Shown: positions 23,659 to 33,782, numbered from the stretch's first letter. The stretch is DNA of 64,000 bases from Gemmatimonadota bacterium (GCA_026706845.1 JAPOXY010000082.1:15779-79778), one strand, 5' to 3'. Numbers and translations are program-made. The notes: generated from the letters alone by a model not told the origin.

Positions 23659-23819
23659 CTCACCTCCGCAATAACCCTTGAAATTCAGGGCTTTGTAATG
23701 TATAATTCATAAATCGCCGCCTGCAAGAGCCGATCGGAAAATCAAAACCGGTCGGCATTTATGATACTGCACAGAACCCAAAGAGTCAACTTAAAGCATC
23801 CAGGATTTTTTCATCCTCC

Positions 23820-26672
23820 ATGTCCATTCTCCACACCTACATAACCCTCGACCTCGAAACCACGGGTCTGAACCCGAAAGAAGCCGAAATAATCGAAATC
23901 GGTGCTGTCAAAGTCAAAGATGGCGAAATAGTCGATCGCTTTCAGACTTATGTGCGCCCCCAAATGGGTGTACCCGAAGAAACAACGCGCCTGACGGGCA
24001 TCGCATTCAAAGACGTGAGAAACGCACCCCGCATCAACGCGGCAATCGAAAACTTTATGACCTTTGCCGGCGACCAGCCCCTCATCGTACACCAGGGCCG
24101 ATTTGAAACCCGCTTTTTATCTGAAGCCTCTGGCCTGCCCTTTGGCAACAACATACACAGCGTGCGCGATCTCGCGCGGATTGCCCTGCCCAATTTATCC
24201 GATCATCGGGCGAATACGCTCGCGGACTACTTTGAAGTCGCATCCTCAGCAGCACACAAAGCACTTTGCGATGCCGAGCAACTCGCAGGCATATACCCGG
24301 GCGTCATCGAGGTCTTGCGCGAAACATCATTGCAAACAAAACAAAACATACTGCGGCTTTTGCAAGGCACAAATAGCCCCTTGCTCAACATCTTTGTCGA
24401 TCTGGGCAATGAAGCGGTCAAAAGCGAATTTATGAACCGCATTCGCGGTGGAGGAGCAGATGGCCTTCCTCTATCCAATGTGGGTGGCGAAGAACTCCGA
24501 GCGGAAACAGAGGCCAGTGAAGAACCCCTCGACATCGACATGCTCTGCACCCTGTTTGAATCCGGCGGCACATTTGACCGTCAAACCGAAGGATATGAAG
24601 TGCGTACCGAACAGATCGAAATGGTACGCGCCATTGCCGATGCCTTCAACAACAACCATCTCCTCGTCGCCGAAGCCGGCACAGGCGTGGGCAAATCCAT
24701 GGCCTATCTCACCCCGGCCATTCACCACGCCGTACAAAATGACCGCCGCGTCATTGTTTCCACCAATACCAAAAATCTTCAGGAACAATTGTTCTTCAAA
24801 GACCTGCCCCACCTCGAACGCATCCTGAATGTACCCTTCAGCTATGTCCTGCTCAAAGGTCGCAGCAACTATATATGCCTCAATCGGTGGCATGCCGCAC
24901 TCGCCAATATCGAAACCTTCTTTACCGAAGACGAGCGCGAAGGCGCTTTACCCCTCGTTATATGGGCAGAACAAACGCAAACCGGTGACATTTCGGAAAA
25001 CAACGGCTTTGATATGCGTCGCTATGCTGGTCTCTGGTCAAAAGTGTGTTCCGACTCGGGGTATTGCCGCTCGCAAAAGTGCCGCACCAACGGACAGTGC
25101 TTTGCCAACGCCGTGCGCCGTTCTGCCCAAAAAGCACATATCGTAGTTATCAATCACTCCCTGCTCTTTTCCGACATCGTCTCGGAAAATGCCGTGCTGG
25201 GCGAATATGAAGACCTCATCCTGGACGAAGCCCACAACATCGAAAAAATTGCCGCACAATATTTGGGGTGCGAACTCAATATATGGCAAATCAAAAATTT
25301 TTCCGATCAACTGCGCAGTCCGGGTTTTCAGAGCACCGGCACCCTGCCCGCATTGCGTCACTGGATCGGTATAGCCGATCTCAAAGACAATATCTTCGCC
25401 ACCTTTGACAAAGGCATTGGGCGGGCAGTGAACGCCGCCGAAGACATCTATCTCAAAGCGCAGACCTTTTTTCAAGACCTCACGGAATTTCTGTACAGCA
25501 AACAGGGCAGCCGCAAATTTTACTACACGCCAAAAGTGCGCTATCGCCCGGGTGAAAATACGTTTGAAGCGGTTGGTGAAAGTCTTGGGGACTTTGCCGA
25601 AGCGATCAAAGAACTCAACAACAACTTAAAAAATCTGTGCGATTGGCTCAAAGACTTGCCCGACGACACCTTTCCCAACCAGGACGAACTCGTCAACGAA
25701 CTCGACGGGCGCGCACAGGAATGCAGCGACCTGCTCGCAGCCCTCAACCACTTGACCCATCCCGAAGATGAACAATGCGTTTACTGGGTTGAATTGCCAA
25801 CCCGAGAAAACAGCAGTGACACGCGCCTGTTTTCTGCGCCTCTGCACGTCGCCGAAGTATTGCACAACGCACTCTACGACAAAATGCGTACCATCGTCTT
25901 CACATCGGCCACTCTGGGTATTCGCGGCAAACTCATCTACTTTCTTCAGCGCATGGGGCTCGACACCATGCCCGAAGAGCGCGTGCAAACGAGTTGTCTG
26001 GGTTCGCCCTTTGACTACAATTTACAAGCCCTCGTCTGCGTACCTCAATTTATGCCATCGCCCAAATCCCCTCATTTTCAACGCGCCGTTGACGATTTGT
26101 TGCGCCATCTCGCACGCAAAGTCGGACGGGGCACGCTGGCATTATTCACGTCCTACAGCATGCTCAACCAGTCTTATGACGCACTCAAAAACGATCTGTC
26201 GTCCGACGGCATCCTGCTCCTGGGACAGGGGATAGACGGCGCGCGCGGCAGCATTACCGACCGCTTTAAGACCCACCGCCGCGCAATGCTCCTGGGCACC
26301 GACAGTTTCTGGGAAGGGGTAGATATCCCCGGCGAAGCCCTCGAAATCCTGGGCATTATTCGCCTGCCTTTTGCCGTGCCATCTGAGCCCCTCGTTGCAG
26401 CGCACATGGAAGAACTCGAAAAACAGGGCAAAAATCCTTTTTTACACTACTCAGTCCCCGAAGCCATTCTCAAATTTCGCCAGGGTTTTGGCCGCCTGAT
26501 ACGCAACAAATCCGACAGAGGCATTGTCATCGTCTTCGACAGTCGGGTTTTATCCACCTTCTATGGACGGGCTTTTCTCGAAGCATTGCCAGTTCAACAT
26601 CGGGCGTTTCGAGCGCCAGACCATTTATTGCAAGCCATCAAAAGCTGGTTCGACAAAGCGAGCGCGTCGTGA
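23820..26672 (+). CDS. dinG: DinG-family ATP-dependent helicase fused to an N-terminal DnaQ-like 3'-5' exonuclease domain
   Basis: Exo I DLETTG, Exo II HQGRFETRF (variant of HNAxFD), Exo III HKALCDAEQ. Walker A AGTGVGKS, DEAH box LILDEAHN. 4-Cys cluster C-x5-C-x4-C-x5-C between motifs I and II. Confidence 0.85.
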   Translation: MSILHTYITLDLETTGLNPKEAEIIEIGAVKVKDGEIVDRFQTYVRPQMGVPEETTRLTGIAFKDVRNAPRINAAIENFMTFAGDQPLIVHQGRFETRFLSEASGLPFGNNIHSVRDLARIALPNLSDHRANTLADYFEVASSAAHKALCDAEQLAGIYPGVIEVLRETSLQTKQNILRLLQGTNSPLLNIFVDLGNEAVKSEFMNRIRGGGADGLPLSNVGGEELRAETEASEEPLDIDMLCTLFESGGTFDRQTEGYEVRTEQIEMVRAIADAFNNNHLLVAEAGTGVGKSMAYLTPAIHHAVQNDRRVIVSTNTKNLQEQLFFKDLPHLERILNVPFSYVLLKGRSNYICLNRWHAALANIETFFTEDEREGALPLVIWAEQTQTGDISENNGFDMRRYAGLWSKVCSDSGYCRSQKCRTNGQCFANAVRRSAQKAHIVVINHSLLFSDIVSENAVLGEYEDLILDEAHNIEKIAAQYLGCELNIWQIKNFSDQLRSPGFQSTGTLPALRHWIGIADLKDNIFATFDKGIGRAVNAAEDIYLKAQTFFQDLTEFLYSKQGSRKFYYTPKVRYRPGENTFEAVGESLGDFAEAIKELNNNLKNLCDWLKDLPDDTFPNQDELVNELDGRAQECSDLLAALNHLTHPEDEQCVYWVELPTRENSSDTRLFSAPLHVAEVLHNALYDKMRTIVFTSATLGIRGKLIYFLQRMGLDTMPEERVQTSCLGSPFDYNLQALVCVPQFMPSPKSPHFQRAVDDLLRHLARKVGRGTLALFTSYSMLNQSYDALKNDLSSDGILLLGQGIDGARGSITDRFKTHRRAMLLGTDSFWEGVDIPGEALEILGIIRLPFAVPSEPLVAAHMEELEKQGKNPFLHYSVPEAILKFRQGFGRLIRNKSDRGIVIVFDSRVLSTFYGRAFLEALPVQHRAFRAPDHLLQAIKSWFDKASAS

Positions 26673-28090
26673 ATACCAAACACCTGACTTCCATACGCGA
26701 GCCTCTGCGGAAATTGCTGGTACAAATTCCCCAGCGCAATCATCCGCTCGTCGGGCATGCATACCACTTCGCCAATGCCAGCCACGAAGGCCAGGACCGC
26801 GATGCCGGGCAACCGTATATTACCCATCCCATCGGCGTGGCACTCATCCTGGCTTCTGAATTGGGCTTTGCACGCGACGCGGAAATGATGGCAGCGGCAC
26901 TATTGCACGACGCCGTTGAAGACTCTGCCCTGACCCTTAACGACATTGAACCCACCTTTGGCAAAAACATTGCCACCCTCGTCAGTGGCGTCACAAAAGT
27001 AGAAGGATCAAAAGCCGGTCGCACTGCGCGGCGCATTGCCACCTTGCAACATCTGTTCACCCACGCCAGAAGAGACCCTCGCGTACTCATTCTCAAATTA
27101 GCTGACCGCATGTATAACATGCGCAGCCTCGACGGTATTTCAGAAATCGACAGGCGACAACGCATTGCGCGAGAAACCATTGATATATACGCGCCCCTAT
27201 CGCACTTGTTGGGCATGGCCCGTATTCGCCGCGAACTCGAAGACCGCAGTCTTTGCTGCCTTGAACCGCGTATCGCGAATCAGATACAGACGACATTTAG
27301 AACAGAACCAACCGGGCACCTCGTGAAATTCCAGGACACAATTCGCAACTTGCTCAACGCCAACGGCGTGCGGACAAGTGTGCGCGTGCAACAGAAAAGT
27401 TTGGGTAGCATTTACCGCAAAATGCAACATCGTCCCCTCAGTCAAATACAGGATCGCTACGCAGTCGAAGTCATTGTCTCGCGCCGTCGTCTGTGTTATT
27501 TGGCTCTGGGCATTCTGCACGAGCACTTCCTGCCCGTTATGGAGCGTTTCAAAGACTTTATTGCCCTGTCCAAACGCAATGGCTACCAGGCCCTGCATAC
27601 CAGTGTCCACCACAAGGACCAACGCTACGAAATCCACATTCAAACCCCTGCAATGCATCGCCTGGGCGAATTTGGCATCGCCGCATTGCGCGGAGACGTA
27701 CAGCACGAAGAGCGACGCACGCGCTGGTTACACGATTTTGTCGATTGGTACGACCGTGCCGATGCCTCCCATCACCTGATGACTGAACTCAAGCGCATCC
27801 TCTTTACCCGGGAAATTGTCGCACTCACCCCCAGAGGGGATCCCTTTATATTGCCCGAAGATGCGACCGTCGTCGATTTTGCCTTTGCCGTGCATACCGA
27901 CCTCGGCTTACAATGCAAAGGAGGCCGTATCAACGGCGCGCGGGCTTATCCGTTCTCCAAACTCGCCTGGGGCGACACCGTTGAAATTGACACCGACCCA
28001 GACCAACATCCCAAAAAGAGCTGGATCAGCCGCGTTAAAACCTACCGCGCCCGCCGTCACATCCAGCACCATCTCAATAGTCAAAAATAA
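26669..28090 (+). CDS. RelA/SpoT homologue with HD hydrolase, synthetase and TGS domains but no C-terminal regulatory half
   Basis: GTG start overlaps the dinG stop (GTGA). HD motif LLHDAVEDS..RVLILKLADRMYNMRSL; synthetase motifs SIYRKM, DRYAVEVIV, GYQALHTSV, YEIHIQT; TGS domain; protein ends ~30 aa after TGS (473 aa). Confidence 0.8.
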   Translation: MNTKHLTSIREPLRKLLVQIPQRNHPLVGHAYHFANASHEGQDRDAGQPYITHPIGVALILASELGFARDAEMMAAALLHDAVEDSALTLNDIEPTFGKNIATLVSGVTKVEGSKAGRTARRIATLQHLFTHARRDPRVLILKLADRMYNMRSLDGISEIDRRQRIARETIDIYAPLSHLLGMARIRRELEDRSLCCLEPRIANQIQTTFRTEPTGHLVKFQDTIRNLLNANGVRTSVRVQQKSLGSIYRKMQHRPLSQIQDRYAVEVIVSRRRLCYLALGILHEHFLPVMERFKDFIALSKRNGYQALHTSVHHKDQRYEIHIQTPAMHRLGEFGIAALRGDVQHEERRTRWLHDFVDWYDRADASHHLMTELKRILFTREIVALTPRGDPFILPEDATVVDFAFAVHTDLGLQCKGGRINGARAYPFSKLAWGDTVEIDTDPDQHPKKSWISRVKTYRARRHIQHHLNSQK

Positions 28091-28091
28091 T

Positions 28092-28409
28092 ATGCCTCGC
28101 TTTCTCTTATTTTTTGCCATTATCCTGATTTTTGCGTGTTCGGGAACCAATCCCGTTCTCGAAAGTCAAAAGGTGAAGGTCTCGCAAGCCCAAAAGACGC
28201 TGCGCGAAGAACGCATCCGCCTGCAAACCCTGCGCGACAGCCTGCAAAGCGAAATTCGCCGCAATATCGCCCTGGGCATCTCAAAAGAACAGGCAGAACA
28301 AATAGAACATGCCCGTATCAAAATTCAGGAAACCATTGTCGTGGCATCGGAGAGAAATTTGGCGGCGCAACGCGCATTGCTCGATTCCCTCACAAAATAT
28401 TCTCCCTGA
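28092..28409 (+). CDS. small coiled-coil lipoprotein
   Basis: MPRFLLFFAIILIFACSG lipobox, followed by a Q/R/E-rich helical region. Confidence 0.5.
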   Translation: MPRFLLFFAIILIFACSGTNPVLESQKVKVSQAQKTLREERIRLQTLRDSLQSEIRRNIALGISKEQAEQIEHARIKIQETIVVASERNLAAQRALLDSLTKYSP

Positions 28410-28434
28410 GGCTTTGTATTTACAAATATTTACA

Positions 28435-28469
28435 AATATTAACTTGCTCTAATAGCACAAATTTATCAT
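28435..28469 (+). promoter_or_regulatory. operator/promoter-like element copy 1 upstream of the DUF1800-DUF1501 operon
   Basis: aatattaacTTGCTCTAATAGCACAAatttatcat; contains a 17-bp imperfect dyad TTGCTCTA-A-TAGCACAA. Also reads as TTGCTC-17 nt-CATCAT (promoter-like). Confidence 0.45.
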
Positions 28470-28520
28470 CATAACTTATACCTGTATTTAATATCCAATA
28501 GCAAATATTTGTATGTCCAA

Positions 28521-28555
28521 AATATTAACTTGCTCTAATAGCACAAATTTGTCAT
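28521..28555 (+). promoter_or_regulatory. operator/promoter-like element copy 2 (34/35 identical to copy 1)
   Basis: aatattaacTTGCTCTAATAGCACAAatttgtcat, 86 bp downstream of copy 1. TTGCTC-17 nt-CATATT, with TTGACC immediately after. Preceded by the palindrome CAAATATTTG. Confidence 0.45.
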
Positions 28556-28609: not shown

Positions 28610-30082
28610 GTGTCCAATCGCGAACATTTTCCTGTTGCGCCCAAACTTGCGTATGCATCCACGGGACTCGAACCGTATATCCCCTCGGCAGAACAGCCGT
28701 GGGACGAGCACCGGGCCGCACACCTCTTGCGGCGCACCCTGATTGGCCCAACGCCAAAAGAAATTTCAGAAGCTGTGCAAAGCACACCAGAAGCCGTTGT
28801 AGATCGCCTTCTGGAAATGCCTTTTTTGCCACCGAATCCACCCGCTCAGTGGGTTTATCAGGATCCATTTCAAAAACCCAATCAAGACCAGCGCAAAATC
28901 GAGCGCGCGCGCGTTGACGAGACCCGCGCCTGGTGGATGGCACTCATCGTCAACCAGGGGTTCTCAATTCAAGAGCGCATGGTGCTCTTCTGGCACGATC
29001 ACTTTGCCACCCAGGCAAAAGATGTCAGACGTCCACAGTGGATGTATCTCCAGAATTTCCTGTTTCGCAAACACGCCGTCGGCAACTTCAAAACAATCGT
29101 CGAGGGCGTCACGCGCGATCCAGCCATGATCTACTACCTCGACAGCAACTCCAACAGAGTGGGAAGACCCAATGAAAATTACGCCCGAGAACTCATGGAA
29201 TTGTTCACCATGGGCGAGGGCAGTACCTACACAGAACACGACATCGGAGAAGCGGCTCGCGCACTCACGGGGTGGATTGTCGTAGGCAGGCAACCCACTT
29301 TTAGAGAGAACCGATTCGACAAAGGCCAGAAGACATTCCTTGGACAAACCGGCAACTTCAATGAGCAAGACATTATCGATATCATCTTCCAGCAAGAAGT
29401 CACAGCCGAATTTATATGCGGCAAACTCTATCGCGAATTTGTCTATGAGCATCCAGACAAAAACGTCGTCTCGGAACTCGCGCAAATCATGCGCGACAAC
29501 AACTACGAAATCAAACCGGTTTTGAAGACATTGCTCTTGAGCCAGCACTTCTTCGATCCAGCCATCATCGGTGCCAAAATCAAAAGCCCCGTCGAACTCG
29601 TCGCTGGCACAGCGCGCAGTCTCGGTTTCAAAGCTGGCACAGGCAGGAGCATCAGTTCCGAGTACCTCGTTTACATCGCTCAGGTGCTCGGTCAAAAACT
29701 GCTCGATCCCCCCAATGTAGCCGGGTGGCCGGGATATCGACTGTGGATCAGTACGTCAACACTGCCCGAACGCCACAAAATGACCGACGAAATGGTCGAT
29801 GCCAGACCGCGCAATCCCAATCGTTACACCATCATCAACCCGGATACCGTGGGATTCGTCAAGGCATTTCCCGAACCCTATGACGCGGAAAAACTCGTTC
29901 GCGACATGGGAGAGTGTCTGACGGCTTTTCCGGTTGACGAATATCGCCTCGAAATGTTTTTGGAGACACTCCTCGAAGGCGCCGATGTCTATGACTGGAA
30001 TCCCGACGCGATTGCAGCACCCCGACGCATCAAGAATATTCTCAAACTCATCTTTGAATTGCCCGACTATCAACTGAATTAG
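28610..30082 (+). CDS. DUF1800 family protein
   Basis: GTG start behind GAGGAGG RBS; LFWHDHFATQAKDV..MIYYLDSNSN.. match DUF1800 hallmarks. Immediately followed by a DUF1501 gene, which is the canonical pairing. Confidence 0.75.
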   Translation: MSNREHFPVAPKLAYASTGLEPYIPSAEQPWDEHRAAHLLRRTLIGPTPKEISEAVQSTPEAVVDRLLEMPFLPPNPPAQWVYQDPFQKPNQDQRKIERARVDETRAWWMALIVNQGFSIQERMVLFWHDHFATQAKDVRRPQWMYLQNFLFRKHAVGNFKTIVEGVTRDPAMIYYLDSNSNRVGRPNENYARELMELFTMGEGSTYTEHDIGEAARALTGWIVVGRQPTFRENRFDKGQKTFLGQTGNFNEQDIIDIIFQQEVTAEFICGKLYREFVYEHPDKNVVSELAQIMRDNNYEIKPVLKTLLLSQHFFDPAIIGAKIKSPVELVAGTARSLGFKAGTGRSISSEYLVYIAQVLGQKLLDPPNVAGWPGYRLWISTSTLPERHKMTDEMVDARPRNPNRYTIINPDTVGFVKAFPEPYDAEKLVRDMGECLTAFPVDEYRLEMFLETLLEGADVYDWNPDAIAAPRRIKNILKLIFELPDYQLN

Positions 30083-30121
30083 ACTTGAGGCCTGCCTGTT
30101 AGCCTCCAGAAGGAGCTCGTT

Positions 30122-31555
30122 ATGAACAGACGCGACTTTATGAAAAATGCGACTCGAGGTGGTGCCGGATTTGCGCTCGGTGGTTTTATGACGCGGGCTT
30201 ATGGGCGCGCCGAAGCCGTTGGTCCCCTGGCCGCAGCAGCCCTCAGCGAGACCGACCGCGTGCTCGTTATCATTCGCCTCAATGGTGGTAATGACGGCCT
30301 CAACACCCTGGTCAATTTTGAAAACGATGCCTATTATCAGGCGCGTCCCAAAATCCACATCAAAAAATCAGAAGCCCTCAGACTCACCCCAGCACAGGGC
30401 CTGCATCCTCGACTCACCGGATTCAAAGAACTCTATGACGAAGGTCAAATGATGATCATGCAGGGGGTGGGTTATCCCAATCCCAACCGATCACACTTCC
30501 GGTCAACCGACATCTGGTTGACCGCATCGAATTCCAATGAATTTTTGAACCACGGTTGGCTGGGGCGCTATTTTGAATCCCAGACTCCGGGCTTCCCGGA
30601 CACCTTGCCAGAACATCCTCTTGCCGTTGACATCGGTCCCGTGCTTTCTCTTGCCTTATTGGGCAAAAACGGTGCCATGGGCATTGCCCTGCGCAACCCC
30701 AGGCAATTTGTCAATCTCGTGGAGCAGGGCAACAAAATTATCGAAGATGGTAAAATTCCCACACCGGCAGGATATGAACTCGACTTTATCCGCCGCATCA
30801 ACTTTGAATCCCTGCAATATTCCTCACAGGTCAGAGATGCCGCAAATAAAGGCGCGAACAGGGTTGAATACCCCACCGGGAATTCGCTCGCCAACCAGCT
30901 CAGTCTGGTCGCGCGGTTGATCGCAGGCGGCTTGAAATCCAAAGTGTACCTGGTCTCACAGGGCGGATACGACACACATTCCAATCAGCTCAACCGCCAC
31001 AACACCCTGATGGGATATCTCAACGACGCAGTCACGTCTTTTGTTCAAGACCTGCGGCAACATCAGTTACAAGACCGCGTGCTCGGCATGAGCATTTCGG
31101 AATTTGGTCGTCGAACCAAAGAAAACGGCAGCGCAGGTACCGATCACGGCACATCAGCGCCCATGTTCTTCTTTGGCCCATCGGTTCAGGCGGGCATTGC
31201 AGGTCCATCCCCCAACTTTGGGCAGGTTGACAGGCGCGGTGACTTTTACTACGATCACGATTTCCGCCATGTCTATGCCTCAGTGCTCAACCAGTGGTTT
31301 GACGTATCGCAAGATGTTGTCTCAAGCATCTTTTCATCCAATACGTCTCACATACCCATTCTCAGACCATCACCACTATCACCCCTCGAACTCGCCAAAG
31401 TTGACTTTAATGCCGACGGCAAACTCGACTTTACCGACTTTCTCGAATTTGCCCAGGCATTCGGTACCAACGAAACCAAATACGACTTAGACGGCGATGG
31501 CAACGTTGGATTTGGCGATTTCTTGAGATTTGTCGATGCTTACCGAAACCGTTAA
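30122..31555 (+). CDS. DUF1501 (sulfatase/alkaline-phosphatase-like) protein with Tat signal and C-terminal dockerin-like tail
   Basis: MNRRDFMKNATRGGAGFALGG twin-arginine signal; GTDHGTSAPMFFFGPSVQAGIAG DUF1501 core. C-terminus DFNADGKLDFTDFLEFAQAFG + DLDGDGNVGFGDFLRFVDAY is a two-repeat dockerin/EF-hand-like pattern. Confidence 0.85.
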   Translation: MNRRDFMKNATRGGAGFALGGFMTRAYGRAEAVGPLAAAALSETDRVLVIIRLNGGNDGLNTLVNFENDAYYQARPKIHIKKSEALRLTPAQGLHPRLTGFKELYDEGQMMIMQGVGYPNPNRSHFRSTDIWLTASNSNEFLNHGWLGRYFESQTPGFPDTLPEHPLAVDIGPVLSLALLGKNGAMGIALRNPRQFVNLVEQGNKIIEDGKIPTPAGYELDFIRRINFESLQYSSQVRDAANKGANRVEYPTGNSLANQLSLVARLIAGGLKSKVYLVSQGGYDTHSNQLNRHNTLMGYLNDAVTSFVQDLRQHQLQDRVLGMSISEFGRRTKENGSAGTDHGTSAPMFFFGPSVQAGIAGPSPNFGQVDRRGDFYYDHDFRHVYASVLNQWFDVSQDVVSSIFSSNTSHIPILRPSPLSPLELAKVDFNADGKLDFTDFLEFAQAFGTNETKYDLDGDGNVGFGDFLRFVDAYRNR

Positions 31556-31637: not shown

Positions 31638-33782
31638 ATGCAAAAATCCAAACGCGAAGTCACAATCTCCAACCGCTATCTCTACTTCTACGCCAGCCTG
31701 GTCAAACGCATCTACGGTCTGATCATCCGAAATGAACACAAAAACCAACCCGACGAGCGCTACACGGGCCATCTGGATGAAGATGGAATACCGAGTTCCC
31801 AGGATGCGCCTCATACAAAAGGCAGACTGCCCGACACACCTGTCCAGGATGAAATTGTCCTGTTTCGCTTTCGAAAACGCCTGCTCATAGGAACATGCCA
31901 GGCTGTTTTGCCCCGCAAAATTTCCGAAATCGCAGTCTTATCAGAAGATGGCCGACGCCTCCGCTTTCACCACCCCAACCTCGTCTATCTCACCGGCACC
32001 TCATCGCGCGATGTCCCACTCAAAACTTATGCAATGACCGTCCGCGCTTTGAGCCGGGAAATAGACCTCGAAGACGTATGGGAAATCGCCGTTGAAGCTG
32101 CGACCCCGCTTCCACTTTCAGAAATCGCCGACCTCTTCTACGATACAGAAATCGATGCGACACAATGGATCGCCCTCTATCTTCACCTGCACGGCGCCTG
32201 TCCTTATTTTCAACCTCTATCTTCCAACTCGTATTCGCCCTATACGGTTGATCAGGCATACTTCCGCCGTCAACACATCAGCCGCAAAAAAGATCGGGAT
32301 GAAGAACGCGAAGAATTTATCCATGTCATGGCGAATAATACCGAATCCATTGCAGAACACACACTGACCCAACGCCAGCAAACCTATCTGGAACAGATTC
32401 GACAATACGCATTGTGGGGCAGCGAATCCCAACACGCGACTCACGCTCAGGCATTGATCTCTGAAATTTGCAAAACCAAAAAAAACCGCCAAAAATCCGC
32501 AGTCGAACTACTCATCAAAAAAAAGGTCTGGAAACGCAATCAAAACCTCGACTTGCTCCGCGCCGAAGTTCCAACTTCATTTTTAGACCTCGTCATCCGC
32601 CAGGCAGAAACACTTGTGCCCACTTGTGGCAACCTGAAAAAACAACCCGTCTTTGTGATACACCCGCCCGATCATCCAAACATCGCCCTCTCGTATCGCC
32701 GCCGGTTCTTTGGAGGCGCAGAGTTTGGCGTACACATACCAGATATCGGCGCACTCATCCCCAAAAATTCGCACATCGACCGCGACGCTGCCGAGCGCAT
32801 GGCGCACATACCCTTTCCCGATCAACCCATTCCCATGCTACCCACGCGCTTTTCACACGACCTGGGCCAATTCCAGAGCGACAAAGCGCATCCAGCACTC
32901 AGCATCTTCTGGCGCGTGAATAGGGATAGCCACATCAAAGATTTTTGCATTGCGCAAACGGCCGCAATCAATAAAGCGGATCTTTCACCTGAAAACATTG
33001 ACCATGCACTGAATGACCCCGCTCACCCGCAGCACCGCGCCATACAATTCTTCTCGCAATTATCCGCACGCCTCCTCAAAAAGAGGCAAACAGCCATTCA
33101 CGACCTCGAGGAACAATCACCTCCAAATCACGCCCATCACATTGCCCGTGAACTATCTCTGCTCGCTGGCATAGCCGTTGGTCGGTGGTGCGAAAATAAA
33201 GGGATTCCCGCAATTTACGAAACACGCGATCCCATTGAAAATACCGAGTCTATCGTACAAATCTCTCACCCCATCGTGCGCCGCCACGAACTTCACCGCC
33301 AAACCCCGAACACCGGCCTCAGTACAACACCAGAAACACATCACGGCTATGGCATCTCGCATTATTGTCCCATCACCCAACCCACAACCAGATACACAGA
33401 CCTCGTAATGCAACGCCAGATCGATCACTACCTTAAAACCGACCAATCCCTCTACACAGTTGACGACCTCAACACCCTGCGCTACCGCATGTGGGAAACG
33501 CAGGACCTCATCGACGACCTGGTACACCGCCATACCCGCAACTTAATGTTACAATCGTGGGAAAATCAAATTGGTCGTGAATTTCGCGCCGTTGTCCTCC
33601 ACCTCAAAATGCGCGGCGTCCTCGTCGAACTCCTCAACCATCCCTTCAAAACAGTCATCTATCCGGGTTATCCCGTAGAAGTCGGCGACGAAATTGACCT
33701 GCGCCTGACGGGTATTGATCGCTGGAAAGGCTGGGCACACTTCACAGAAAAAACCTACCAGCAATCAGCAGTCGGCTTTTAG
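31638..33782 (+). CDS. RNB-domain (RNase II/R family) protein with substituted catalytic aspartates, plus C-terminal S1-like domain
   Basis: RNB motifs II-IV are alignable (VHIPDIGALIPKNSHIDRDAAERMAHIPFPDQPIPMLP; HHGYGISHYCPITQPTTRYTDLVMQRQI). Motif I reads FVIHPPDHPNIAL where RNase II has FTIDSASTEDMDDAL. Confidence 0.7.
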   Translation: MQKSKREVTISNRYLYFYASLVKRIYGLIIRNEHKNQPDERYTGHLDEDGIPSSQDAPHTKGRLPDTPVQDEIVLFRFRKRLLIGTCQAVLPRKISEIAVLSEDGRRLRFHHPNLVYLTGTSSRDVPLKTYAMTVRALSREIDLEDVWEIAVEAATPLPLSEIADLFYDTEIDATQWIALYLHLHGACPYFQPLSSNSYSPYTVDQAYFRRQHISRKKDRDEEREEFIHVMANNTESIAEHTLTQRQQTYLEQIRQYALWGSESQHATHAQALISEICKTKKNRQKSAVELLIKKKVWKRNQNLDLLRAEVPTSFLDLVIRQAETLVPTCGNLKKQPVFVIHPPDHPNIALSYRRRFFGGAEFGVHIPDIGALIPKNSHIDRDAAERMAHIPFPDQPIPMLPTRFSHDLGQFQSDKAHPALSIFWRVNRDSHIKDFCIAQTAAINKADLSPENIDHALNDPAHPQHRAIQFFSQLSARLLKKRQTAIHDLEEQSPPNHAHHIARELSLLAGIAVGRWCENKGIPAIYETRDPIENTESIVQISHPIVRRHELHRQTPNTGLSTTPETHHGYGISHYCPITQPTTRYTDLVMQRQIDHYLKTDQSLYTVDDLNTLRYRMWETQDLIDDLVHRHTRNLMLQSWENQIGREFRAVVLHLKMRGVLVELLNHPFKTVIYPGYPVEVGDEIDLRLTGIDRWKGWAHFTEKTYQQSAVGF

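What the first reader, a model, noticed from the sequence alone, without database searches (positions are those of the whole stretch)
26669..28090. Half-length RelA/SpoT homologue (HD + synthetase + TGS only), translationally coupled to dinG
The protein has an intact HD hydrolase motif set and recognisable synthetase motifs, although ExQIRT reads EIHIQT. It has a TGS domain and then stops about 30 residues later, at 473 aa. The helical, zinc-finger/CC and ACT/RRM regulatory half of long RSH enzymes is entirely absent. The next gene is an unrelated lipoprotein, so this is not a split gene. It is neither a small alarmone synthetase nor a small alarmone hydrolase in architecture. Its GTG start overlaps the dinG stop, which ties expression to a DNA-repair helicase-exonuclease.
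Basis: partly seen in the sequence, partly recalled or inferred. Interest (0 to 1): 0.55.

Follow-up and report, generated by a model that had tools for sequence, protein, structure and literature searches.

The report
Truncated SpoT-like alarmone hydrolase, dinG-coupled
This gene encodes a naturally shortened RelA/SpoT-family enzyme, conserved in Latescibacterota bacteria and always translationally coupled to a DinG repair helicase, that most likely only degrades the stress alarmone (p)ppGpp, while a separate full-length copy that has lost its degrading site makes it.

Summary
ORF 26669-28090 (GTG, 473 aa) has HD_4, RelA_SpoT and TGS domains and stops 33 residues after TGS. Its start overlaps the dinG stop (GTGA). 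It is not an assembly error or a split gene: about 70 protein clusters and 27 species-level Latescibacterota genomes carry the same 448-514 aa protein. In all 31 loci examined dinG lies directly upstream, and 29 of 31 keep the 4-nt start/stop overlap.

The interpretation needs revising. Hydrolase residues are invariant in the family. Synthetase residues that are invariant in full-length RSHs are replaced family-wide (RelSeq R241, R269, Q325, R327; HWxYK deleted). This partly parallels the experimentally hydrolase-only SpoT of A. baumannii.

Eleven genomes carry both this short copy and a full-length RSH. In 10 of 11 the long copy has perfect synthetase motifs but has lost the catalytic ED dyad of its hydrolase. 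Across the same genomes, HD is better conserved in the short copy (28/28 pairs) and SYNTH in the long copy (26/28).

Best reading: an independent RelA/SpoT-like split, in which the short copy is the dedicated (p)ppGpp hydrolase. The truncated architecture has a precedent (RshC of Bacillus). It is a new variant of a known kind. The meaning of the dinG coupling is unknown.

The parts
23678..23706 (+). Sigma-70-like promoter candidate (TTGAAA-17-TATAAT, 11/12) upstream of dinG; likely drives dinG and the RSH gene as one transcript
   Evidence: No terminator-like site on the + strand between dinG and the RSH gene. This is a consensus match only, not proof of function.
23820..26672 (+). dinG-like gene: N-terminal DnaQ/RNase_T 3'-5' exonuclease domain fused to a DinG/XPD-type helicase (950 aa)
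   Evidence: RNase_T 9-159, DEAD, DEAD_2, Helicase_C_2 763-924. NF005981 DinG 660 bits, TIGR01407 dinG_rel 498 bits, both below their curated cut-offs. It lies directly upstream of the short RSH in all 31 family loci.
26669..26672 (+). GTGA start/stop overlap (RSH start codon GTG overlapping the dinG TGA stop): translational coupling signature
   Evidence: An NTGA overlap is conserved in 29 of 31 loci, while the start codon varies between GTG, ATG and TTG.
26669..28090 (+). Short RSH paralogue (473 aa): HD, pseudo-SYNTH, Core linker, TGS and one C-terminal helix
   Evidence: AlphaFold2 model: mean pLDDT 89.3, pTM 0.87. Closest structures are B. subtilis Rel 6yxa and A. baumannii SpoT 7qpr.
26759..27217 (+). 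HD hydrolase domain (residues 31-183) with all catalytic motifs intact
   Evidence: R44, H53, H80-D81, E84-D85, K143, D146-R147 and N150 are invariant in 66/66 family members.
27392..27685 (+). Pseudo-synthetase domain (residues 242-339 by Pfam; the motif region spans 239-343)
   Evidence: Window Q241, E267, H323 and Q325 replace RelSeq R241, R269, Q325 and R327, and HWxYK is deleted. K243, S247, K251, D262, Y306, H310 and E321 are kept. New family-specific arginines: R239, R263, R273, R303, R319.
27686..27823 (+). Core/linker helices between SYNTH and TGS (residues about 340-385)
   Evidence: Lowest-confidence part of the model (pLDDT 55-75) and the least conserved segment in the family (0.54 mean identity).
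27824..27988 (+). TGS domain (residues 386-440)
   Evidence: The His of the DFAFAVHTD motif (H409) is invariant in all 80 aligned short and long RSHs. The equivalent CCA-recognising His is lost in hydrolase-only SpoT_Ab (PMC9974481).
28022..28087 (+). C-terminal tail: one helix equivalent to the start of the helical domain (W452...RARR), then the stop
   Evidence: Helix 459-472 in the model. Alignment to B. subtilis Rel ends at about residue 483. Atkinson et al. describe RshC as likewise truncated within the helical domain.
28092..28409 (+). Small lipoprotein-like ORF (105 aa) starting 1 nt after the RSH stop; not part of the RSH
   Evidence: no family match. Conserved only in close relatives (L001, L002, L004-L010, L018; 74-91% identity) and absent downstream in the other family loci.

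Best explanation
The gene encodes a Latescibacterota-specific paralogue of the long RelA/SpoT homologues that has become the cell's dedicated (p)ppGpp hydrolase ([Hs] in Atkinson's notation).

Shown:
- The architecture is HD, SYNTH-fold, Core, TGS and one helix.
- The hydrolase residues are fully conserved.
- Synthetase residues are replaced family-wide.
- The helical/ZFD/RRM half that anchors Rel and RelA to the ribosome is absent.
- A full-length RSH paralogue occurs in the same genomes, with intact synthetase motifs and, in most lineages, a destroyed hydrolase ED dyad.
- The two copies show reciprocal domain-level constraint.
- The gene is coupled to dinG by a conserved 4-nt start/stop overlap.

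Inferred:
- The long copy works like RelA: a ribosome/tRNA-activated synthetase with no hydrolysis.
- The short copy works like SpoT: Mn2+-dependent removal of the 3'-pyrophosphate. Its pseudo-SYNTH, Core and TGS would act as an intramolecular scaffold or regulatory module for the HD site, as shown for A. baumannii SpoT.
- Because it lacks the ribosome-binding domains, it should act off the ribosome.
- The NTGA overlap implies termination-reinitiation, so the hydrolase is made in fixed proportion to the DinG exonuclease-helicase. Whether the two proteins interact is unknown.
For: 1. Domains and truncation.
2. The family is conserved and the stop position is fixed: about 70 clusters of 448-514 aa with a sharp score gap to the full-length RSHs; 27 species-representative genomes; frames end right after the TGS tail in all loci. 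At 50% clustering the family is a single representative at 845 bits, against 439 bits for the next hit.
3. HD residues are invariant in 66/66. K143 and R147 correspond to SpoT_Ab K140 and R144, which hold the 3'-pyrophosphate.
4. SYNTH residues invariant in 44/44 long RSHs are replaced: R241 to Q/H/F, R267 to E (46/66), Q323 to H (55/66), R325 to Q (61/66), and HWxYK deleted (66/66). RelSeq numbering was confirmed.
5. Hydrolase-only SpoT_Ab carries the same R-to-E change at the RelTt R277 position, has also replaced the catalytic Gln347, and does not bind GDP (PMC9974481).
7. The long copies keep GRxK, DLxAxR, ExQIRT and AAHWxYK in 11/11 but lack the catalytic ED in 10/11 (DE, EN, RH, AH; some also HD to HG and DR to ER). 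The short copies keep HDxxED and KLADR in 11/11. ED is named a catalytic motif.
8. Over the same genome pairs, HD identity is 0.78 in the short copy against 0.68 in the long (28/28 pairs). SYNTH identity is 0.65 against 0.77 (26/28).
9. Different substitutions destroy ED in different long-copy lineages. This fits relaxed selection once a separate hydrolase existed.
10. The fold is confirmed by a confident model.
Against: - No enzymology exists; all activity statements are inferred from motifs.
- The two Mg2+-ligand positions of the synthetase site (D262, E321), the lysines K243 and K251, and Y306 and H310 are retained. Five new arginines are conserved in the family, and the SYNTH domain is still 65% identical across the family. 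An altered nucleotide-binding or residual catalytic function is therefore not excluded. In SpoT_Ab the catalytic Asp is also lost; here it is not.
- SpoT_Ab truncated to a similar length (1-454) loses much of its hydrolase activity. A TGS-terminated enzyme must have adapted, or it may need a partner.
- One long paralogue (P0158) still has a canonical ED dyad. The DE swap in another clade might retain some activity.
- The window's own genome could not be searched for its long copy. The nearest evidence is a chromosome whose short copy lies in the 97%-identity cluster.
- Genome pairs are not phylogenetically independent.
Confidence: 0.7

Rival explanations
1. A half-length but still bifunctional Rel. 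The SYNTH domain would remain catalytically active, perhaps with a rearranged set of phosphate-binding arginines, and the protein would both make and break (p)ppGpp off the ribosome under TGS control.
For: D262, E321, K243, K251, S247, Y306 and H310 are retained. Family-specific conserved arginines R239, R263, R273, R303 and R319 could compensate for the lost ones. SYNTH is still under purifying selection. A truncated RSH with fully canonical motifs exists elsewhere (P0487), and RshC is written [HS] by Atkinson et al..
Against: Four residues invariant in all 44 long RSHs, plus the HWxYK motif, are lost family-wide, including the Gln that Tamman et al. call catalytic. One subclade (L021-L031) has drifted further: H323 to A, E267 to V/I, H310 to Q. 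SYNTH evolves faster than in the co-resident long copy, while HD evolves more slowly. The co-resident long copy keeps a perfect synthetase, which makes a second one unnecessary.
Confidence: 0.14
2. An HD hydrolase with a different physiological substrate, for example (p)ppApp, pGpp or another 3'-phosphorylated nucleotide. It would be linked functionally to DinG-dependent nucleic-acid metabolism rather than to stringent-response reset.
For: RSH-type HD domains are known with other substrates: solved structures include a (p)ppApp hydrolase (7smg) and MESH1 complexed with NADPH and PAPS (5vxa, 9chy), all weak matches. The invariant coupling to an exonuclease-helicase and frequent proximity to an RNase II homologue would suit a role in nucleic-acid metabolism.
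Against: The HD domain scores as a standard Rel/SpoT HD (117 bits to HD_4). It superposes on Rel NTDs bound to pppGpp at 2.5 A. It keeps the 3'-pyrophosphate-holding K and R. The reciprocal decay of the long copy's hydrolase site is most simply explained if the two act on the same substrate.
Confidence: 0.1
3. A pseudogene or assembly artefact: a full-length rel cut short by a nonsense or frameshift error.
For: None beyond the short length. A few tblastn alignments drift in frame past the stop.
Against: The same stop position occurs in 31 independent loci from complete chromosomes and MAGs, down to 57% identity. About 70 clusters have the same length. There is no ZFD or ACT remnant in any frame of the window. 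The in-frame sequence after TAA is unrelated. The next gene is different and varies between lineages.
Confidence: 0.01
4. Part of a mobile anti-phage defence module: a DinG-like helicase-nuclease plus an alarmone enzyme, by analogy with toxSAS or type IV CRISPR DinG.
For: PADLOC's generic typeIV_DinG and DEDDh models hit the helicase. RSH enzymes are used in toxin-antitoxin defence (PMC7229694).
Against: The RSH itself has only a 23.5-bit PADLOC hit, and there are no cas genes. The locus sits among housekeeping genes (metG, holB, HU) with conserved synteny. The family tree mirrors that of the long paralogue, which indicates vertical inheritance. The hydrolase site is intact and the synthetase site degraded, the opposite of a toxSAS.
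Confidence: 0.03

Closest known systems
RshC[HS] of Bacillus (Atkinson, Tenson & Hauryliuk 2011, PMC3153485)
   Same: A second, divergent long-RSH copy alongside Rel. [quoted passage not shown] That is the same HD+SYNTH+TGS architecture.
   Different: RshC is limited to six Bacillus strains and written [HS], with both sites apparently intact. No dinG linkage and no reciprocal decay of the Rel partner is described. The Latescibacterota family has a degraded SYNTH site.
Hydrolase-only SpoT of Acinetobacter baumannii / SpoT[Hs] (Tamman et al. 2022, PMC9974481; PDB 7qpr)
   Same: A monofunctional hydrolase with a pseudo-SYNTH domain, partnered by a synthetase-only RelA. It shares the R-to-E change at the RelTt R277 position and the loss of the catalytic Gln. 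The HD-Core-TGS axis scaffolds the hydrolase site. 7qpr is the second-best whole-chain structural match.
   Different: SpoT_Ab is full length (HEL, ZFD and RRM present, and these stimulate hydrolysis). It has also lost the catalytic Asp and the tRNA-CCA-recognising His of TGS. The window protein keeps both (D262, H409) and lacks the whole distal CTD.
RelA/SpoT pair of Beta- and Gammaproteobacteria
   Same: Duplication of an ancestral Rel followed by subfunctionalisation into a synthetase with a pseudo-hydrolase domain (RelA) and a hydrolase-dominant enzyme (SpoT). The Latescibacterota long and short pair shows the same reciprocal motif decay. From my own knowledge, E. coli spoT also shares an operon with a DNA helicase gene (recG).
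   Different: An independent event in an unrelated phylum. Here the hydrolase partner has shed the ribosome-binding half. By curated models the protein is a member of neither family (SpoT NF008303: 315 bits against a cut-off of 947; RelA NF008124: 203 against 728).
Small alarmone hydrolases (SAH; Mesh1, PbcSpo, etc.)
   Same: The predicted net activity is stand-alone (p)ppGpp hydrolysis off the ribosome. HD-domain similarity to MESH1 and other SAHs is detectable.
   Different: SAHs are single-domain proteins of about 180-200 aa. This protein retains a SYNTH-fold domain, the Core and TGS.
Engineered Rel NTD-TGS constructs (e.g. B. subtilis Rel 1-556, PDB 6yxa)
   Same: The best whole-chain structural and sequence match, with the same domain span.
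   Different: Those are laboratory truncations of a bifunctional enzyme. This is a natural, conserved gene product with a degraded synthetase site.

Membership tests
Long RSH (Rel/RelA/SpoT; NCBIfam TIGR00691 spoT_relA) | N-terminal HD hydrolase domain (PF13328/PF01966) | tested here: met
   HD_4 117 bits, HD 29.8 bits; catalytic residues invariant in the family.
Long RSH (Rel/RelA/SpoT; NCBIfam TIGR00691 spoT_relA) | SYNTH domain (PF04607) present | tested here: met
   RelA_SpoT 77 bits at residues 242-339; fold confirmed.
Long RSH (Rel/RelA/SpoT; NCBIfam TIGR00691 spoT_relA) | TGS domain | tested here: met
   PF02824 42.7 bits at residues 386-440.
Long RSH (Rel/RelA/SpoT; NCBIfam TIGR00691 spoT_relA) | Helical (AH/RIS), zinc-finger/CC and ACT/RRM C-terminal domains | tested here: not met
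   No Pfam hit after residue 440, and the protein ends at 473. The TIGR00691 match stops at profile position 452 of 687. Full-length hits carry PF19296 and PF13291; the short family does not. No remnant in the window.
Long RSH (Rel/RelA/SpoT; NCBIfam TIGR00691 spoT_relA) | Whole-protein score above the curated cut-off | tested here: not met
   421.7 bits against a cut-off of 499.2. The shortfall is attributable to the missing C-terminal half.
SpoT equivalog (NF008303) / RelA equivalog (NF008124) | Score above the equivalog cut-off | tested here: not met
   315.4 against 947, and 203.4 against 728.
Catalytically competent (p)ppGpp synthetase | Conserved SYNTH active-site residues (RelSeq R241, K243, K251, D264, R269, E323, Q325, R327; HWxYK) | tested here: not met
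   R241Q, R269E, Q325H and R327Q, with HWxYK deleted; K243, K251, D264 and E323 equivalents kept. Activity itself is not testable here.
Catalytically competent (p)ppGpp hydrolase (RSH HD) | R, H, HD, ED, K..DR..N motif set | tested here: met
   R44, H53, H80-D81, E84-D85, K143, D146-R147 and N150 are invariant in 66/66. Activity itself is not testable here.
Small alarmone hydrolase (SAH) | Single HD domain only | tested here: not met
   SYNTH-fold and TGS domains are present.
Small alarmone synthetase (SAS) | SYNTH domain only, with an active synthetase site | tested here: not met
   HD and TGS are present, and the SYNTH site is degraded.
RshC[HS] (Atkinson 2011) | HD+SYNTH+TGS, truncated within the helical domain | tested here: met
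   against the description.
RshC[HS] (Atkinson 2011) | Occurs as a second, divergent copy beside a Rel | tested here: met
   Eleven related genomes carry both copies. Not shown for the window's own genome.
RshC[HS] (Atkinson 2011) | Membership of the monophyletic Bacillus RshC clade | not tested
The family here is restricted to Latescibacterota and is isolated in profile space, so common descent with RshC is unlikely but unproven.
DinG family helicase (upstream gene) | DEAD_2/Helicase_C_2 helicase core, here with an N-terminal DnaQ-type exonuclease | tested here: met
   domains. NF005981 at 660 bits and TIGR01407 at 498 bits are the best hits, though both fall below their equivalog cut-offs.

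The most novel reading that the evidence does not exclude
The near-invariant 4-nt translational coupling of the short hydrolase to the DinG exonuclease-helicase may reflect a physical or regulatory partnership. DinG, or the DNA/R-loop structures it engages, could act through the retained TGS/pseudo-SYNTH module to switch (p)ppGpp hydrolysis. Alternatively, the hydrolase could lower alarmone levels locally where DinG resolves replication-transcription conflicts. That would be a direct molecular link between alarmone turnover and a DNA-repair helicase. It would also mean that a TGS domain had been repurposed from sensing tRNA on the ribosome to sensing a repair factor.
Probability: 0.12. Interest if true: 0.75.

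Novelty: new variant of a known kind. Interest (0 to 1): 0.45.

Why it matters
**Third independent split.** This would be a third independent, phylum-level case of an ancestral bifunctional Rel splitting into a synthetase-only and a hydrolase-only enzyme, after RelA/SpoT and possibly RshB. It occurs in an uncultured phylum (Latescibacterota) whose stringent response has not been described: no paper in the library mentions both terms.

**A natural minimal SpoT.** The hydrolase partner ends just after TGS. Structural work on SpoT identified HD-Core-TGS as the axis that organises the hydrolase site. Evolution appears to have kept exactly that axis and discarded the ribosome-binding half. This offers a compact test case for how TGS and a pseudo-synthetase domain regulate hydrolysis off the ribosome.

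**An unexplained link to DNA repair.** The conserved coupling to DinG recalls the spoT-recG operon of E. coli. It also fits genetic links between stringent RNA polymerase behaviour and accessory helicases, DinG included (PMC2936116).

**Annotation.** Public names for these proteins, such as 'bifunctional (p)ppGpp synthetase/hydrolase' or 'GTP pyrophosphokinase', are probably wrong for both paralogues.

Tried and rejected
- **Frameshift, nonsense artefact or split gene.** tblastn of five full-length RSHs and their last 260 residues against the window found only the one locus and no ZFD or ACT remnant. HSPs that ran past the TAA were alignment drift: the in-frame sequence after the stop is unrelated.
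- **Programmed -1 frameshift making a DinG-RSH fusion.** The RSH frame is open for 282 nt upstream in the window. In relatives this open stretch varies from 21 to 366 nt and contains no conserved feature. Rejected.
- **Defence-system reading.** PADLOC gave only generic DinG and DEDDh hits.
- **Structured RNA in the window.** Rfam gathering-threshold scan found 0 hits.
- **Origin of the short family.** An NJ tree with 100 bootstraps shows monophyly (100/100) but does not resolve the sister group (sister entirely Latescibacterota long RSHs in 1 replicate, mixed in 37, none in 62). No ML software was available.
- **Wider family.** The profile search of 1.84 billion representatives found no intermediate relatives. 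P0346, a divergent 480-aa HD + degraded-SYNTH + TGS protein, has no dinG upstream. P0487 is a separate truncated RSH with canonical motifs.
- **Genome scan limits.** Absence of the short copy from a given genome cannot be inferred, so 'canonical ED in the long copy correlates with no short copy' could not be tested.
- **SpoT_Ab residue mapping.** Direct alignment failed because SpoT_Ab's pseudo-SYNTH is too diverged to be hit by the SYNTH segment. Mapping rests on RelSeq numbering and motif spacing.
- **Literature.** No paper links Latescibacteria with ppGpp.

Full report
**1.

The ORF at 26669-28090 (+) starts with GTG and encodes 473 aa. Pfam finds HD_4 (residues 31-183), RelA_SpoT (242-339) and TGS (386-440), and nothing in the last 33 residues. 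NCBIfam's spoT_relA model aligns only over profile positions 1-452 of 687, and the score (421.7) falls below the curated cut-off (499.2). Against solved structures the protein aligns with Rel and RelA through the TGS domain and ends at about residue 483 of B. subtilis Rel.

The upstream gene (23820-26672) is a 950-aa fusion of a DnaQ-type exonuclease and a DinG-type helicase. Its TGA overlaps the RSH GTG as GTGA. The downstream ORF (28092-28409) is a 105-aa protein with a lipoprotein-like signal sequence and no family match. A sigma-70-like promoter (11/12 match) lies at 23678-23706, upstream of dinG, and there is no terminator-like site between dinG and the RSH gene.

**2. It is a conserved gene family, not an artefact.**

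A search of 5.8 billion proteins returned about 70 clusters (54-98% identity), nearly all 448-514 aa, with the same three domains. Several lie on 4-8 Mb contigs. Scores then drop sharply to full-length (710-770 aa) RSHs at 42% identity or less.

A scan of species-representative genomes found the family in 27 genomes, all Latescibacterota (a few are labelled Gemmatimonadota), at 57-96% identity. The next hits were long RSHs from many phyla at 46% or less. In every family locus the reading frame stops just after the TGS tail.

A profile search of 1.84 billion representatives shows how isolated the family is. It collapses to one representative at 845 bits, and the next hit scores 439 bits.

tblastn with full-length RSHs and their C-terminal 260 residues finds one RSH locus in the window and no remnant of ZFD or ACT. 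The in-frame sequence past the stop is unrelated.

**3. The dinG coupling is a family trait.**

All 31 family loci have the dinG homologue directly upstream, down to 56% DinG identity. None of the 53 long-RSH loci has dinG within 10 kb. In 29 of 31 loci the RSH start codon overlaps the dinG TGA by 4 nt. The start codon varies (GTG, ATG, TTG) while the overlap is kept. The two exceptions have gaps of 21 nt and about 100 nt.

Downstream genes vary. The lipoprotein-like ORF with DUF1800/DUF1501 follows in close relatives, and an RNase II homologue follows directly in another clade. The conserved unit is therefore dinG plus the RSH gene. The surrounding genes are housekeeping (metG, holB, HU). PADLOC gives only generic DinG and DEDDh hits, so a defence-island reading is not supported.

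**4. The two catalytic sites have different fates.**

I aligned 66 family members with 44 full-length RSHs. The hydrolase residues (R44, H53, H80-D81, E84-D85, K143, D146-R147, N150) are invariant in the short family.

In the SYNTH domain, positions invariant in all 44 long RSHs are replaced family-wide:
- R241 becomes Q, H or F (R is kept in only 4 of 66).
- R267 becomes E (46/66).
- Q323 becomes H (55/66).
- R325 becomes Q (61/66).
- The HWxYK motif is replaced by L-R/K with the YK deleted (66/66).

Alignment to RelSeq fixes these positions as R241, R269, Q325 and R327.

Retained residues are K243, S247, K251, D262 (RelSeq D264), Y306, H310 and E321 (RelSeq E323). Five arginines are newly conserved in the family (R239, R263, R273, R303, R319). 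One subclade has drifted further, with H323 to A, E267 to V/I and H310 to Q.

Tamman et al. showed that A. baumannii SpoT is hydrolase-only. Its pseudo-SYNTH carries R249K, R277E and Y329N and replaces the catalytic D272 and Q347 (RelTt numbering), and it does not bind GDP (PMC9974481). The window family shares the R-to-E change and the loss of the catalytic Gln, but keeps the Asp. The synthetase site is thus degraded in a conserved way. This argues for a regulatory pseudo-domain, although residual or altered nucleotide binding cannot be excluded.

**5. A full-length partner with the opposite defect.**

Chromosome OZ220733.1 carries both a short copy (L021) and a long RSH (L057). MAG JAGWBX01 does the same (L029 and L061).

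I searched with the L057 protein and matched contig lengths between clusters. This identified nine further large contigs that carry both copies: 8,082,295; 5,656,476; 4,699,647; 5,677,935; 3,495,649; 6,181,206; 5,935,793; 5,561,361; and 5,660,449 bp. The 5,561,361-bp chromosome holds a short copy from the cluster that is 97% identical to the window protein.

In all 11 genomes the long copy keeps GRxK, DLxAxR, ExQIRT, AAHWxYK and the full C-terminal half. In 10 of 11 its catalytic ED dyad is gone: DE in two, EN in one, RH in two and AH in five. Some have also changed HD to HG and DR to ER. The short copy keeps HDxxED and KLADR in 11/11. The ED motif is described as catalytic in the SpoT structure paper.

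The dyad is destroyed by different substitutions in different lineages, and one lineage (P0158) still has it. This suggests repeated relaxation of selection on the long copy's hydrolase once a separate hydrolase was present.

**6. Reciprocal constraint.**

I compared eight genomes that have both copies, giving 28 genome pairs:

| Domain | Short copy, mean identity | Long copy, mean identity | Direction |
|---|---|---|---|
| HD | 0.776 | 0.677 | short higher in 28/28 pairs |
| SYNTH | 0.653 | 0.772 | long higher in 26/28 pairs |
| TGS | 0.729 | 0.787 | long higher in 26/28 pairs |

The pairs are not independent, but the direction is consistent, and it is the signature expected of subfunctionalisation.

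**7. Structure and origin.**

An AlphaFold2 model built on an 80-sequence alignment is confident (pLDDT 89.3, pTM 0.87). Only the Core linker (about residues 340-380) is weaker. The chain ends in a single helix (459-472) after TGS.

The best whole-chain matches are B. subtilis Rel NTD-TGS-AH (6yxa) and full-length SpoT (7qpr). The NTD superposes on Rel catalytic fragments at 2.5-3.5 A.

The TGS His of DFAFAVHTD (H409) is invariant. By contrast, the CCA-recognising His is lost in SpoT_Ab. The TGS may therefore still bind a ligand.

An NJ tree shows the short family to be monophyletic (100/100) on a long stem with an unresolved sister group. Its internal branching mirrors that of the co-resident long copies, which indicates old, vertical co-inheritance.

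**8. Comparison with what is known.**

Atkinson et al. (2011) list lineage-specific second copies of Rel (RshA-D). They describe RshC of six Bacillus strains as truncated within the helical domain, keeping TGS but lacking the CC and ACT domains. They also note RelA-like HD divergence in RshB. The architecture and the phenomenon of lineage-specific Rel duplicates are therefore known. Jimmy et al. (2020) count 13 long-RSH subfamilies and do not mention Latescibacteria. No paper in the library links Latescibacteria with ppGpp.

Other truncated RSHs exist:
- P0487 has canonical motifs and sits in an lpxB context.
- P0346 has an intact HD and an even more degraded SYNTH, with no dinG upstream.

Three things are new here:
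- The combination of a TGS-terminated [Hs] copy with a full-length [hS] partner in an uncultured phylum.
- The evidence for reciprocal decay of the two copies.
- The near-invariant translational coupling to a DinG exonuclease-helicase.

Links between stringent RNA polymerase behaviour and accessory helicases, DinG included, are documented genetically in E. coli (PMC2936116). From my own knowledge, E. coli spoT shares an operon with recG. No mechanism can be assigned to the coupling here.

**9. Verdict.**

The most likely function is a dedicated, ribosome-independent (p)ppGpp hydrolase whose pseudo-SYNTH/Core/TGS module is regulatory, balancing a RelA-like long paralogue (confidence about 0.7). 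It is a new variant of a known kind, of moderate interest (0.45).

The main uncertainties are:
- There is no biochemistry.
- The Mg2+ ligands of the pseudo-SYNTH site are retained.
- The origin of the family is unresolved.
- The meaning of the dinG coupling is unknown.

Noticed in passing
window 1-64000: The + strand has a strongly negative GC skew throughout (about -0.07 to -0.32 per 2 kb, mean about -0.21) and a positive AT skew. The skew stays negative for genes on both strands: about -0.10 to -0.15 for most + strand genes and -0.2 to -0.4 for - strand genes. There is thus a large strand-wide bias plus a smaller gene-orientation component. The bias is unusually strong for a bacterial chromosome and probably explains the many long 'shadow' ORFs on the opposite strand.
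   Followed up: partly
window 28434-28555: Two 36-nt direct repeats (97% identical, 86 nt apart; core TTGCTCTAATAGCACAA) lie in the AT-rich intergenic region between the lipoprotein-like ORF and the DUF1800 gene, with nearby inverted repeats. The core occurs nowhere else in the window (0 expected by chance) and only once in the closest relative L005. It looks like a local duplication of a promoter or operator-like element.
   Followed up: partly
related loci L057, L061, L064, L076; proteins P0151-P0157, P0166-P0197, P0278, P0290, P0317: Full-length RSH paralogues of many Latescibacterota have lost the catalytic ED dyad of the HD domain through different substitutions in different lineages (DE, EN, RN, GH, AH, RH; some also HD to HG and DR to ER), while all synthetase motifs stay canonical. 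Public annotation calls them bifunctional.
   Followed up: yes
L085 306-2028 (P0346) and L088 6001-7775 (P0487): Two unrelated RSHs of about 480 aa, both ending just after TGS, occur outside the dinG-linked family. Each is followed by a small (100-107 aa) zinc-ribbon ORF that overlaps its stop codon (Zn_ribbon_DnaG-like after P0346, Zn_Ribbon_1-like after P0487). Whether these small proteins substitute for the missing zinc-finger domain is unknown.
   Followed up: no
window 31638-33782 and L001, L005-L008, L010-L012, L016, L018, L020-L027, L030, L031: An RNase II (RNB) homologue with N-terminal HTH/winged-helix domains lies within a few kb downstream of the short RSH in most family loci, and directly downstream in the L021-L031 clade. 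The wider neighbourhood thus groups three nucleic-acid or nucleotide enzymes: DinG, the RSH and RNase II.
   Followed up: partly
window 28610-31555: A DUF1800/DUF1501 gene pair. The DUF1501 protein carries a C-terminal EF-hand/dockerin-like calcium-binding repeat (weak Pfam hits at residues 424-467).
   Followed up: no
window 23820-24300 (DinG N-terminus): In the DnaQ-like exonuclease domain, the second motif reads HQGRFETRFL, so by eye Glu replaces the usual Asp of NxxxFD. The first (DLE) and third (Hx4D) motifs look intact. A cluster of four cysteines (CSDSGYCRSQKCRTNGQC) suggests an Fe-S cluster in the helicase. Both points come from reading the sequence only.
   Followed up: no
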